A stretch of DNA of 64,000 nt, from assembly GCA_964016885.1 (NCBI GenBank), contig OZ024758.1, positions 19,654,001 to 19,718,000 on the forward strand, read 5' to 3'. A program made the position numbers and the translations under genes. Shown here in pieces: positions 13,078 through 19,382 of the stretch. This DNA is from Eledone cirrhosa (lineage: Eukaryota). Below the pieces are notes generated by a model. That model saw only the letters and a list, made by a program, of their open reading frames with translations. It was not told the origin of the DNA and ran no database searches. How positions within the stretch are numbered: the first letter of the stretch is position 1; the number at the start of each line of letters is the position of its first letter.

Positions 13078-13630
13078 TATATATTATTATATATCTATTA
13101 TTATATATATTATTATATATATATTATTATATATATATTAAATATATATTATTATATATATATTATATATATATATATTATTATATATTATATATATATA
13201 TATTATTATATATATATTATATATATATTATATATATATTATATATATATATTATTATATATATATTATTATACATATATTATTATATATATATTATATA
13301 TATATATTATTATATATTATATATATATATTATTATATATATATTATTATATATATTATTATATATATATTATATATATATATTATTATATATATATTAT
13401 TATACATATATTATTATATATATATTATTATATATATATTATTATACATATATTATTATATATATATTATATATATATATTATTATATATATATTATATA
13501 TATATATTATTATATATATATTATTATATATATATTATATATATATATTATTATATATATATTATTATATATATATATTATATATATATTATTATATATA
13601 TATTATATATTATATATATATATATATATA

Positions 13631-13668
<38 letters not shown>

Positions 13669-13831
13669 TTTATATTATATATATATATTATATATATATA
13701 TTATATATATATATATATATTATATATATATATATTATATATATATATATTATATATATATTATATATATTATATATATTATATATATATATATATTATA
13801 TATATTATATATATTATATATATATATATAT

Positions 13832-13894
<63 letters not shown>

Positions 13895-13955
13895 ATATTA
13901 TATATATATATATATATTATATATATATATATTATATATATATATATTATATATA

Positions 13956-14011
<56 letters not shown>

Positions 14012-14490
14012 ATATTATATATATTATATATATTATATATATATATATTATTATATATATATATTATATATTATTATACATATATATATATATATATTAT
14101 ATATATATATATATATTATATATATATATATATATTATATATATATATATATATTATATATATATATATAATATATTATATATATATATATATATTATAT
14201 ATATATATATAATATATTATATATATAAATATATATTATATATATATATATAATTTATTATATATATATATTATATATATATATATTATATATATATATA
14301 TAATATATTATATATATATATATATATTATATATATATATATAATATATTATATATATAAATATATATATTATATATATATATATAATTTATTATATATA
14401 TATATTATATATATATATATTATATATATATATATAATATATAATATATTATATATATATATTATATATATATATATTATATATATATAT

Positions 14491-14522
<32 letters not shown>

Positions 14523-14523
14523 A

Positions 14524-14563
<40 letters not shown>

Positions 14564-14570
14564 ATATATA

Positions 14571-14615
<45 letters not shown>

Positions 14616-14642
14616 ATATATATTATATATATATATATATAT

Positions 14643-14674
<32 letters not shown>

Positions 14675-14762
14675 ATTATATATATATATATATATATAAT
14701 ATATATATATATTATATATATATATATATATTATATATATATATATATATTATATATATATA

Positions 14763-14827
<65 letters not shown>

Positions 14828-14828
14828 A

Positions 14829-14873
<45 letters not shown>

Positions 14874-14902
14874 ATTATATATATATATATTATATATATA
14901 TA

Positions 14903-14947
<45 letters not shown>

Positions 14948-14979
14948 ATTATATATATATATATTATATATATATATAT

Positions 14980-15074
<95 letters not shown>

Positions 15075-15078
15075 ATAT

Positions 15079-15137
<59 letters not shown>

Positions 15138-15282
15138 ATAATATATTATATATATATATATATTATATATATATATAATATATTATATATATATATTATA
15201 TATATATATCTTATATATATTATATATATATATATATTATATATATTATATATATATTATATATATATATATTATATATATA

Positions 15283-15320
<38 letters not shown>

Positions 15321-15365
15321 TATATATATATTATATATGATATATATATATATATATTATTTATA

Positions 15366-15414
<49 letters not shown>

Positions 15415-15439
15415 ATATATATATAATATATTATATATA

Positions 15440-15512
<73 letters not shown>

Positions 15513-15638
15513 ATAATATATTATATATATATATATATTATATATATATATATAATATATTATATATATATATATATATTATATATATATATATAATATA
15601 TTATATATATATATATTATATATATATATATAATATAT

Positions 15639-15670
<32 letters not shown>

Positions 15671-15707
15671 ATTATATATATATATATATTATATATTTAT
15701 ATATATA

Positions 15708-15749
<42 letters not shown>

Positions 15750-15864
15750 ATATATATATATTATATATATATTATATAATATATATATAATATATATATA
15801 TATATATTATATTATATATATATATATTATATATATATATATATATATATTAATATATATATAT

Positions 15865-15898
<34 letters not shown>

Positions 15899-15920
15899 AT
15901 ATTATATATATATATTATAT

Positions 15921-15956
<36 letters not shown>

Positions 15957-16039
15957 TATATAATATATATATATATATATATATATTATATTATATATAT
16001 ATATATTATATATATATATATATATATTATATATTATAT

Positions 16040-16080
<41 letters not shown>

Positions 16081-16585
16081 TATATTATATATATATATAT
16101 ATTATATATATATATATAATTATATATATTATATATATATATATATATATATTATTTATATATATATATATTATATATATATATATATATTATATATATA
16201 TATATATATTATATATATATATATTATATATATTATATATATATATATTATTATATATATTATATATATATATATATATATTATTTATATATATATATAT
16301 TATATATATATATATATATTATTTATATATATATATATTATTTATATTATATATATATTATATATATTATATATATATATATATTATATATATATATATA
16401 TATATTATTTATATATATATATATATATTATTTTATATATATATATATTATTTATATATATATATATATATATTTTTATATATATATATATTATTATTTT
16501 TATATATATATATATTATTTTTATATATATATATATTATTTTTATATATATATATATTATTTTTATATATATATATATTATTATT
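13078..16585. repeat. Interrupted (TA)n array, about 3.5 kb
   Basis: Direct inspection; almost free of C and G. Confidence 0.97.
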
Positions 16586-16879
16586 ATAAAAACAAATAAC
16601 GAAACGAAATAAATTTCGTTTCGTTTGTAACTCACTTTTGTATGACTGACGCTTAAACAATTAAGTTAAAAATGTACATCCACATATGTATACTGAAATA
16701 CTAGTATGCATATGAATACACACACGTATACATATGTAGATGTACCGAGTTTTTCACTGGTCACTTTACTGTGAGTGTCCAGCTATTCTGTATGTAAACA
16801 CACAGACAAACCGGTTTTTAGAGTCATACTGGTTTTTGAGGAAACACCTTTCCTCTATTCTTCAGAAAGCCAGACAAGG

Positions 16880-16924
16880 AATATTGAACTAGTTTCGTTG
16901 TTGTTACAACTCATCAGCAATATT
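16880..16924 (-). ncRNA. Minimal type I hammerhead ribozyme, intact
   Basis: Exact reverse complement of 17743-17787. Confidence 0.9.
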
Positions 16925-17742
16925 TACCTATCTTCCGGCCTTTCTAGAGAATCGTAAAAGCACATATCGTTATATGCTTTTTCTATGAAAATTATTAGTG
17001 GGCAGACTAATTTGCATAGAGCGTGAGTACGTACCGGTTCAACGGAGACGATAAAAACAAATAACGAAACGAAATTAAATTTCGTTTCGTTTGTAACTCA
17101 CTTTTGTATGACTGACGCTTAAACAATTAAGTTAAAAATGTACATCCACATATGTATACTGAAATACTAGTATGCATATGAATACACACACGTATACATA
17201 TGTAGATGTACCGAGTTTTTCACTGGTCACTTTACTGTGAGTGTCCAGCTATTCTGTATGTAAACACACAGACAAACCGGTTTTTAGAGTCATACTGGTT
17301 TTTGAGGAAACACCTTTCCTCTATTGTCTGGCTTTCTGGAGAATAGAGGAAAGGTGTTTCCTCAAAAACCAGTATGACTCTAAAAACCGGTTTGTCTGTG
17401 TGTTTACATACAGAATAGCTGGACACTCACAGTAAAGTGACCAGTGAAAAACTCGGTACATCTACATATGTATACGTGTGTGTATTCATATGCATACTAG
17501 TATTTCAGTATACATATGTGGATGTACATTTTTAACTTAATTGTTTAAGCGTCAGTCATACAAAAGTGAGTTACAAACGAAACGAAATTTAATTTCGTTT
17601 CGTTATTTGTTTTTATCGTCTCCGTTGAACCGGTACGTACTCACGCTCTATGCAAATTAGTCTGCCCACTACTAATTTTCATAGAACAAGCATATAACGA
17701 TATGTGCTTTTACGATTCTCTAGAAAGGCCGGAAGATAGGTA

Positions 17743-17787
17743 AATATTGCTGATGAGTTGTAACAACAACGAAACTAGTTCAATATT
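17743..17787 (+). ncRNA. Minimal type I hammerhead ribozyme, intact
   Basis: AATATTG-CTGATGA-GTTG(TAACAA)CAAC-GAAA-CTAG-TT-CAATATT: 7-bp stem I, full core, 4-bp stem II with G10.1-C11.1, palindromic CTAG in stem/loop III; predicted cut after 17780 (GUU). Confidence 0.9.
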
Positions 17788-17810
17788 CCTTGTCTGGCTT
17801 TCTGGAGAAT

Positions 17811-18160
17811 TATATATATATATATTACTATTATATATATATATATATTACTATTATATATATATATATATTACTATTATATATATATATATTACTATTA
17901 TATATATATATATTACTATTATATATATATATATTACTATTATATATATATATATTACTATTATATATATATATATATTACTATTATATATATATATATA
18001 GTACTATTATATATATATATATAGTACTATTATATATATATATATAGTACTATTATATATATATATATAGTACTATTATATATATATATATAGTACTATT
18101 ATATATATATATATTACTATTATATATATATATATTATTATTATATATATATATATATAT
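17811..18160. repeat. Minisatellite of about 20 bp: (TA)n-TTACTAT / TAGTACTAT
   Basis: Repeated TTACTATT then GTACTATT units spaced by TA runs. Confidence 0.85.
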
Positions 18161-19382
18161 ACATGTGCAACCCCAATATCTACCTGGAGTTGCGATCGAT
18201 AGATAGTATTAGCAATTGGAAAGACCAACGGAAACATTGTTCCCTCGGTCCGATTTGATATACATGTGCAACCCCACTATCTATATATATCTATACAATA
18301 TATATATATATATACATGTGCAACCCCAATATCTATATATATATAATGTGTGTGTGTGTGTGTGTGTGTGCCTGCGTGTGTGTGTGTATGTGTGAATTCA
18401 ATGGAAATAATAACACCAGCGGTACAGTATATGAAAGAAATGTATTAATTTAACGTTTGCAATAGCAGGCAGCGGATATTAATGTTAACGGGTGATGTTA
18501 AGTTGGAAGTAAATGTATAGTGTAAGAAATATATATATATACAATGACACACAAACAGAAGCACCTACTTACAGACGCACATACAGAGAATACTTAGGAT
18601 TAAATAAGATTATTGATCCCATGTACAACATTCTCAATAATTATATTGCTTATTATACTTTACCTCTCGATAAACTGAAGTTATTTGCCAATGTCGAGTG
18701 AGAATCGATCAACATTTTTGTCAGTTTTTAACACTCCTCAGGAATCGCTAATCACAACTATCAAATATATATCATTTTAGACATTAGACAGGCAAGATTT
18801 AATTACAAATCACTAATGATGTGTGATTATTAAGACAAGTGTATAGCGACTTAATCTAGAATCAGTTTTATGATGAATATTTATTCTTGGTAGTAAACCG
18901 ACTATCTGTGTATAACTAATACCTCTTTCGAATCGTATAACGAATGAGAATTTATTAAAGTGTGACGAGGGAAGTTCGCAATTATAGGAAACAAATTAAA
19001 TTAAACAATTCTGTAAAAATTATATAGAAATAAAATATACCAACAAGCCACCTGATTTCTATAGTATTGATGAATCTACATAACTAATATTATCAGGGGA
19101 GTTAGGCTTCAACACAAGGAGGTGAAAAAGGTTTTCATTTTCATGAATGTCATTGTACGGAAGTTCTGTGTTCTTAATGGTCTTTACTAAATTTAATACC
19201 GTAAGAGTCTAATTAAGTTAAAATACACTAAAGTATATTAAATTTATAAGGGATGGGATTACTTGGATTAAGCAGCATTCCATGTCGATTTCATTTAATA
19301 TAACTTAATTTATTTTCATTTAATTTGATGTAATTTATTCTAATTAGACGCATCTCTCTCTCCAACACATTGTATATAAGAC

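What the first reader, a model, noticed from the sequence alone, without database searches (positions are those of the whole stretch)
16586..17810. Candidate circular-RNA retrozyme: young 466-nt hammerhead monomer in tandem, inverted and terminally redundant copies
Seen: a 466-bp non-coding unit present as about 1.6 tandem copies on the minus strand (17325 to 16586) and one plus-strand copy (17324-17810) that starts and ends with the same 21 nt. Each unit has a perfect minimal type I HHR, only about four differences between arms are visible, and both ends run into TA arrays. Known: metazoan non-LTR retrozymes are tandem HHR repeats of a few hundred bp whose transcripts self-cleave to monomers and circularise. 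Inference: permuted start points plus terminal redundancy suggest reverse transcription around a circular or multimeric RNA, making this a recently active viroid-like mobile RNA. I do not know whether this family is already described.
Basis: partly seen in the sequence, partly recalled or inferred. Interest (0 to 1): 0.92.

Follow-up and report, generated by a model that had tools for sequence, protein, structure and literature searches.

The report
Hammerhead retrozyme with Penelope insertion footprint
This is one copy of a very abundant, protein-free 466-base repeat that carries a predicted self-cutting RNA motif and sits in TA repeats as two back-to-back arms; it is likely a known kind of parasite (an animal retrozyme) copied by a borrowed Penelope-type retrotransposon enzyme, probably from a small RNA circle, though cutting, RNA and circle are untested.

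Summary
In detail: a 466-bp non-coding unit as a 1.59-unit minus arm and a 1.05-unit plus arm, head-to-head, between (TA)n arrays, with four differences.

It belongs to a large family: 4,843 exact hammerheads, 1,995 exact end junctions. In 67 of 78 head-to-head junctions one arm ends at unit position ~302 and the other at ~228-233. Six of six two-armed coding Penelope-like (PLE) insertions in this genome follow the same long+short rule. No copy (0 of 110) runs into a PLE ORF. It is therefore an animal non-LTR retrozyme, likely mobilised by a PLE enzyme.

Near-invariant arrays of 20-38 units favour rolling-circle reverse transcription but do not prove it.

- The 21-nt redundancy is unique to this locus.
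- There is one hammerhead per strand, so this copy cannot release a monomer.
- Nothing supports viroid-like RNA replication.

No RNA data were available, and the helper PLE was not identified. The scan found this same kind of element before on other DNA, in this genome and others. Verdict: new member of a known kind; interest 0.45.

The parts
16586..17325 (-). Arm 1: 1.59 tandem units, unit positions 28->466->302 (position 1 = first base after the predicted cut). Its outer end is the family's major 'long' 3' end.
   Evidence: the same end joined to (TA)n occurs 1,995 times
17324..17810 (+). Arm 2: 1.05 units, positions 10->466->30. Its outer end is atypical and lies 2 nt beyond the inner start of arm 1.
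   Evidence: this end is found once in the genome
17743..17787 (+). Type I hammerhead motif; predicted cut after 17780 (GUU); palindromic helix III, predicted to work as a dimer
   Evidence: 0 of 16 core sites carry a variant common to 3 or more loci
16880..16924 (-). Identical hammerhead motif in arm 1; predicted cut after 16887
17324..17325 (.). Head-to-head junction of the two 5' ends, with a 2-nt microhomology
   Evidence: family junctions mostly lie between 8 nt of overlap and 9 nt of gap
17542..17616 (+). 'Tail' between the family's two usual 3' ends (positions 228-233 and 302). It holds a perfect 13-bp hairpin and is read through in this arm.
17790..17810 (+). 21-nt repeat of 17324-17344. 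It is the start of the next unit, not a terminal repeat of the family.
13078..16585 (.). Left degenerate (TA)n target array
17811..18161 (.). Right TA-rich array with a 23-bp period (15.6 copies)

Best explanation
This is one insertion of an abundant non-coding 466-nt hammerhead repeat (an animal non-LTR retrozyme) that is likely copied into TA microsatellites by a borrowed Penelope-like RT/GIY-YIG enzyme, probably from a circular monomer RNA. Steps: (1) Tandem arrays elsewhere in the genome would be transcribed, and neighbouring hammerheads would pair through the palindromic helix III and cut out 466-nt monomers that circularise (inferred). (2) A PLE enzyme would nick both strands of (TA)n, and each 3' end would prime reverse transcription on the same RNA, one at position ~302 and one at ~228-233. 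The two fixed ends, head-to-head layout, TA target and shared haplotype are shown; the enzyme is inferred. (3) Each cDNA runs a variable length, up to 29 units, and the two are joined by microhomology (layout shown; rolling circle inferred, about 0.6). In the window copy the second primer appears to have taken over where the first cDNA stopped (28 vs 30) and ran one unit plus 21 nt (inferred). With one hammerhead per strand this copy is predicted to be a dead end.
For: Ends: 67 of 78 head-to-head junctions have one long and one short end, 0 have two long ends, 1 has two short ends. In loci picked by the hammerhead or by BLAST rather than by an end, 19 of 24 two-armed loci fit. In-genome control: 5 of 5 two-armed coding PLE insertions of family F and 1 of 1 of family A (L118) have one long and one short end in (TA)n; tails are about 44 and 66 nt, against about 70 nt here. 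PMC11167929 shows a PLE starting at two internal sites and extending both strands. One template: arms of a locus disagree at 54 of 4,031 common polymorphic sites, against 28% between loci. Long at birth: L138_9 has 38 units and 1 singleton, L136_7 25.5 and 0, L059_60 19.7 and 0, L140_1 23.7 with 1 singleton and 1 shared variant, while an older array shows few block duplications beside 45 singletons (L162). RNA-level selection: z -9.4 for folding; common transmitted variants keep pairs in 29 of 45 cases, post-insertion singletons in 66 of 201 (p 1.5e-4); stem II of the hammerhead has a compensatory change (70 vs 35 loci); the cut triplet varies only GUU/GUC; a sister family keeps the core with different stems.
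Against: No RNA, cleavage or circle was seen. No sequence link to any of six sampled PLE families was found, so the helper is unidentified. Variants I first took as private to one locus are shared by sub-lineages (288 units, and 71 units in 7 places), so a homogeneous master array read as a linear multimer remains possible; one array of that lineage runs into N and has unknown length. Block duplications after insertion are real (L069, L073_74, L162, L181). Array length against singleton rate is not significant (rho -0.23, p 0.11, n 50). 5' ends do not pile up at the cut site (KS p 0.30). In PMC11167929 unprocessed RNA was the main substrate, and 8 of 9 Xenopus retrozyme dimers did not cut in vitro (bioRxiv 10.64898/2026.07.22.740005).
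Confidence: 0.72

Rival explanations
1. It is the same non-autonomous PLE-mobilised repeat, but the template is a long, uncut linear transcript of a homogeneous master array; circles, if made, are by-products.
For: In PMC11167929 hammerhead mutants still inserted and unprocessed RNA was the dominant substrate. Sub-lineage variants are shared among several arrays. The window's 28/30 junction (also L053 14/19 and L072 198/205; 3 of 10 atypical rows) resembles twin priming on one continuous RNA. 5' ends are uniform around the unit.
Against: It needs RNAs of 8-14 kb with up to 29 uncut tandem hammerheads, the arrangement in which such motifs are described as active (PMC4209133). A new variant would have to spread through a whole master array first, and none of the 7 places of the 71-unit lineage showed a mix with its parent type. 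The core is conserved (0 of 16 sites; about 0.04 by chance from 85 of 466).
Confidence: 0.2
2. The unit is the terminal repeat (pLTR) of an autonomous Penelope element not yet found, and the copies are 5'-truncated insertions.
For: The footprint is that of PLEs (PMC3846280, PMC8557442). PLEs are very abundant here: 10,597 GIY-YIG candidates, of which only 150 were scored. Xenopus retrozymes resemble pLTRs (24 of 57 families matched known TEs, nearly all PLEs; bioRxiv 2026).
Against: 0 of 110 loci continue into a PLE ORF; the two near cases are separated by TA tracts and a whole arm. Units abut with no insert in arrays of up to 29 units. No similarity was seen to the terminal regions of the six PLE families sampled.
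Confidence: 0.05
3. It is a DNA-level minisatellite or fold-back element grown by unequal crossing-over, or an assembly artefact beside long TA arrays.
For: Block duplications occur in older arrays. The unit is rich in hairpins. The window lies among long TA arrays with a 200-N gap about 3.5 kb to the left. The window's own junction was not checked against reads.
Against: About two thousand dispersed sites share the same 3' end. Two fixed ends lie on opposite arms. Structure-keeping changes favour the hammerhead strand. Contigs of a public run show many different minus/plus joints of this unit.
Confidence: 0.03

Closest known systems
Animal non-LTR retrozymes (Cervera & de la Pena 2020, PMC7229834; Li, Clavereau & Pollet, bioRxiv 10.64898/2026.07.22.740005)
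   Same: Non-coding tandem unit of a few hundred bp, low GC, one canonical type I hammerhead per unit, dispersed from monomers to multimers, PLEs present in the same genome.
   Different: PMC7229834 has no occurrence of 'inverted', and the parts of the 2026 preprint that I read do not describe head-to-head arms or two fixed start sites. The preprint favours growth of arrays by unequal crossing-over, whereas the youngest arrays here look long at insertion. No pLTR homologue was found here. RNA is not shown here.
Endonuclease-bearing Penelope-like elements (Penelope/Poseidon, Neptune; PMC11167929, PMC8557442, PMC3846280)
   Same: Head-to-head 5'-truncated arm, tail at one end only, two RT start sites, AT-rich or (TA)n target, hammerhead upstream of the start sites, microhomology at the junction.
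   Different: No ORF. The tail is about 70 nt rather than 30-40 nt (44 and 66 nt in two local PLE families). The hammerhead is the canonical form. Arms reach 29 units.
Non-autonomous Chlamys PLEs such as MRC1 (PMC8557442, passage read)
   Same: Non-coding, PLE-mobilised, multicopy head-to-tail insertions, microsatellite target.
   Different: That paper reports no canonical hammerhead in the N-terminal-endonuclease PLEs (Naiad/Chlamys), and non-autonomous Chlamys generally share 3' sequence with an autonomous family; here there is a hammerhead and no partner was found.
Viroids and viroid-like hammerhead RNAs (recalled)
   Same: Size, strong predicted fold, hammerhead.
   Different: A hammerhead on one strand only, genome-encoded, and no sign of RNA-to-RNA replication.

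Membership tests
Animal non-LTR retrozyme | Tandem unit of roughly 150-1000 bp with a type I hammerhead in each unit | tested here: met
   466-468-bp period across arrays; 26 of 60 loci have two or more hammerheads on one strand. The window copy itself has only one per strand.
Animal non-LTR retrozyme | No protein coding, no LTR structure, low GC | tested here: met
   Longest frame is 60 aa; family base counts give 35% GC; PBS and PPT were not searched for.
Animal non-LTR retrozyme | Dispersed, mobile copies | tested here: met
   1,995 exact end junctions on both strands; places on C1, C2, C3, C4, C6, C18 and C19.
Animal non-LTR retrozyme | Self-cleavage of the transcript | not testable with these tools
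   Only motif, conservation and covariation were examined.
Animal non-LTR retrozyme | Expressed as linear and circular monomer RNA | tested here: inconclusive
   None of the 6 runs listed is on record as RNA.
PLE-mobilised element | [quoted passage not shown] | tested here: met
   67 of 78 junctions are long+short; the control is 6 of 6 coding PLE pairs. The window copy is an exception (302 + 30).
PLE-mobilised element | Head-to-head inverted 5'-truncated arm and AT-rich microsatellite target | tested here: met
PLE-mobilised element | Sequence shared with the pLTR of an autonomous family | tested here: inconclusive
   None in six families sampled; only 150 of 10,597 GIY-YIG candidates were scored.
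Autonomous Penelope-like element | RT plus GIY-YIG ORF between pLTRs | tested here: not met
   No PLE match in the window; 0 of 110 loci are joined to one.
Viroid-like replicon | RNA-to-RNA replication, often with ribozymes in both polarities | tested here: not met
   The scan found a hammerhead only on the sense strand of the unit; replication itself is not testable here.

The most novel reading that the evidence does not exclude
These insertions are direct footprints of two-ended rolling-circle reverse transcription. A dimeric Penelope enzyme primes both nicked DNA strands on one 466-nt ribozyme-made RNA circle, at two sites about 70 nt apart, and writes up to 14 kb of repeats per arm in one event, sometimes swapping primers (this window) or circles (L142, L147). 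That would explain the head-to-head, one-tail structure of Penelope elements and make satellite-like arrays at birth. The helper would recognise the RNA by shape, without a shared pLTR sequence.
Probability: 0.4. Interest if true: 0.72.

Novelty: new member of a known kind. Interest (0 to 1): 0.45.

Why it matters
Retrozymes are known, and PLEs have been proposed as their helpers from co-occurrence and pLTR similarity. How PLEs make their tandem/inverted insertions is described as undefined (PMC8557442). This family gives thousands of young insertions whose ends match local coding PLEs, and arrays that look long at birth. Open PLE ORFs of 900 aa or more lie in the same genome, so both questions can be tested in vitro with a short RNA: circle or linear template, and one or two primers. 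The window copy itself is an atypical, probably inert member.

Tried and rejected
- Terminal redundancy as a family mark: rejected; 1 genomic match.
- 'Private variants prove a monomer bottleneck': my first reading, withdrawn after searches showed the variants at several sites.
- ADAR editing before reverse transcription: the A>G excess depends on the cut-off. A>G vs T>C was 9:5 (p 0.29), 15:6 (p 0.049), 23:7 (p 0.003), 6:5 in both arms (p 0.77) and 5:2 (p 0.28). C>T shows a like skew, which G-U tolerance explains. Not claimed.
- Simple fold-back of the first cDNA: not favoured; arm lengths are uncorrelated (rho -0.02, n 39), and in the window neither arm nests in the other.
- RT stops at the cut site: not seen.
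- Helper search: GIY-YIG family search, family F protein, variant-hammerhead pattern (1,702 matches, mostly the sister family among those listed), nhmmer over 88 PLE loci (output partly cut, the visible strong hits were retrozyme copies nearby and the rest TA-like sequence). No partner found.
- Expression: no RNA holder listed. laid contigs only. One 496-nt contig (466+30, depth 4.5) in run X5 fits a closed repeat but cannot tell DNA from RNA.
- Rfam miRNA hits come from the inverted junction and hairpins.
- An snRNA-type promoter as in newt satellite 2 is recalled only (searches gave no passage). The octamer is lost in a lineage that still spread.
- The window's own junction remains unchecked against reads, and the total hammerhead count over all variants was not obtained.

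Full report
Observation. Counting from the first base after the predicted cut (window 17781 = position 1), the minus arm reads 28->466->302 and the plus arm 10->466->30. The arms meet 5' to 5' at 17324-17325 with a 2-nt overlap, differ at 4 places in 1,228 nt, and end in (TA)n. The unit has no frame over 60 aa and folds far better than shuffles (z -9.4). There are two hammerheads, one per strand. Rfam finds nothing at gathering level and HH9 at E 1.3e-7 below it. The short palindromic helix III matches the canonical metazoan form that PMC4209133 describes as cutting as a dimer in multimers; two copies cofold at -7.2 kcal/mol. Neither strand of this locus holds two ribozymes, so it cannot release a monomer.

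Family. The genome is 3.0 Gb; that it is a cephalopod is a recalled impression and untested. The 45-nt hammerhead occurs 4,843 times exactly, control 0. The junction of position 302 with (TA)n occurs 1,995 times. The 227-233 junction occurs 591 times on the forward strand; the reverse count of 1,649 counts single sites several times. The window's position-30 end occurs once, so the 21-nt redundancy is a one-off.

Insertion footprint. I mapped 110 loci, mostly from the first third of contig C1. Of 78 complete head-to-head junctions, 67 have one end at 295-303 and the other at 224-235; 6 pair a long end with another position, 3 pair a short end with another, 1 has two short ends, 1 has neither, and none has two long ends. 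Sixty of the loci were picked by their 302 end, so only the partner end is a test there. Of those 60, 39 had a clean short partner. Seven more show a very short partner arm in the flank and one has both ends around an internal rearrangement. Three ran off the fetched region and 10 did not fit. In loci picked by the hammerhead or BLAST, 19 of 24 two-armed loci fit. 5' ends are uniform around the unit (KS p 0.30), arm lengths are uncorrelated, and over half of the arms exceed one unit (22 and 25 of 39). Both arms carry the same haplotype: 54 of 4,031 common polymorphic sites disagree within loci, against 28% between loci.

Control. The genome holds many RT+GIY-YIG elements. Family F ends in (TA)n at two sites about 44 nt apart (16 long, 13 short, 1 unclear of 30). 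Five of five two-armed F insertions and the one two-armed family A insertion (66-nt tail) have one long and one short end. This is the published PLE signature: a head-to-head inverted copy and a tail at one end (PMC8557442, PMC3846280), explained in vitro by two internal RT start sites and extension of both strands (PMC11167929). No retrozyme copy joins a PLE ORF (0 of 110), and I found no similarity to six sampled PLE families. The unit works like a non-autonomous PLE, and its helper is unknown.

Selection on the RNA. None of 16 hammerhead core sites has a variant common to three or more loci, against 85 of 466 sites overall (about 0.04 by chance). Stem II has a compensatory swap in 35 of 105 loci, and the cut base is U or C. 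Common transmitted variants keep predicted pairs in 29 of 45 cases, post-insertion singletons in 66 of 201 (p 1.5e-4); the structure was folded from the family majority, which biases this somewhat. A sister family about 65% alike keeps the core with different stems (17 of 82 pairs show double changes, mostly from that one family split).

Circle or linear multimer. For a circle: arrays of 38, 25.5, 23.7 and 19.7 units carry 1, 0, 2 and 0 variant sites, while an older array shows only a few block duplications beside 45 singletons (L162), so these arrays look long at insertion. An arm of 29 units would need about 14 kb of RNA with 29 uncut tandem ribozymes. Against: variants I thought private mark sub-lineages spread over several sites, so a homogeneous master is possible, and one candidate runs into N. 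Block duplications do occur after insertion (L069, L073_74, L162, L181). Length against singleton rate is not significant (p 0.11). PMC11167929 found unprocessed RNA to be the main substrate. I put the circle at about 0.6.

The window copy. Its unusual end (30) lies 2 nt from the inner start of the other arm (28). L053 (19/14) and L072 (205/198) show the same; that is 3 of the 10 atypical rows, noticed after the fact. The simplest reading is that the second DNA end took over the template where the first cDNA stopped and copied one unit plus 21 nt. This fits either template. The junction was not checked against reads.

Comparison and novelty. The family meets the sequence-level definition of animal non-LTR retrozymes (PMC7229834; bioRxiv 10.64898/2026.07.22.740005); cleavage and circular RNA are untested, and no RNA run was listed. 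Searches turned up no paper describing this family or head-to-head two-start-site arrays in retrozymes, but the library lacks most subscription papers. The scan itself has noted the same kind of element repeatedly: 91 findings in at least 18 genomes hold my search words, including a 310-nt family in this genome and 470-, 490- and 591-nt families elsewhere. These are unchecked AI notes, seen after my analysis.

Papers seen. bioRxiv 10.64898/2026.07.22.740005: parts 1-3 of 5, no supplements. PMC11167929: parts 1-2 of 4. PMC7229834: passages and the Discussion. PMC8557442, PMC4209133, PMC3846280 and PMC9977147: passages only. Newt satellite 2 promoter and L1 twin priming: recalled.

Verdict. A real, ordinary member of a known class, with a useful mechanistic footprint at family level. 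New member of a known kind; interest 0.45.

Noticed in passing
L007:116-574, L082:1941-2405, L123:8199-8709, L124, L107, L214-L242: An older sister retrozyme family, about 430-510 nt and about 65% alike, with the same hammerhead core and different stems. It also sits in (TA)n, and one subfamily holds a variable TA tract inside the unit. Most of the 100 listed matches (of 1,702) belong to it.
   Followed up: partly
L142 and L147: Arms made of two subfamilies: a homogeneous 3' block and a different homogeneous 5' block. In L142 the switch falls between positions 466 and 70, spanning the cut site; in L147 it falls at 110-139. Template switch, gene conversion or misassembly.
   Followed up: partly
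window 17650-17657; L059_60, L134, L135, L136_7: An octamer motif shared with the sister family. Three clustered A>G changes in one stem destroy it in a lineage that still spread to 7 places, so it is not required for mobility.
   Followed up: partly
L069, L073_74, L162, L181: Period-2, -3 and -6 block duplications inside arrays show growth after insertion.
   Followed up: partly
L113-L128, L274-L281: At least six RT+GIY-YIG PLE families, several with long open frames (900-1,096 aa). Family F has many near-identical copies and a minimal hammerhead just upstream of its frame. In families A, D and E the hammerhead-like stretch looks degenerate.
   Followed up: partly
L144, L146: Two copies outside TA arrays show what look like short target-site duplications.
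   Followed up: no
window 17811-18161; L081 right flank: Flanks often carry short periodic TA-plus-few-bases repeats, in L081 including pieces of the element's end; perhaps repeated priming or slippage.
   Followed up: no
window 56581-63600, 40739-41400, 42124-42949: A 7-kb TA-rich array, a 25-bp CA-rich array and a GAC/GAA-rich 43-49-bp array.
   Followed up: no
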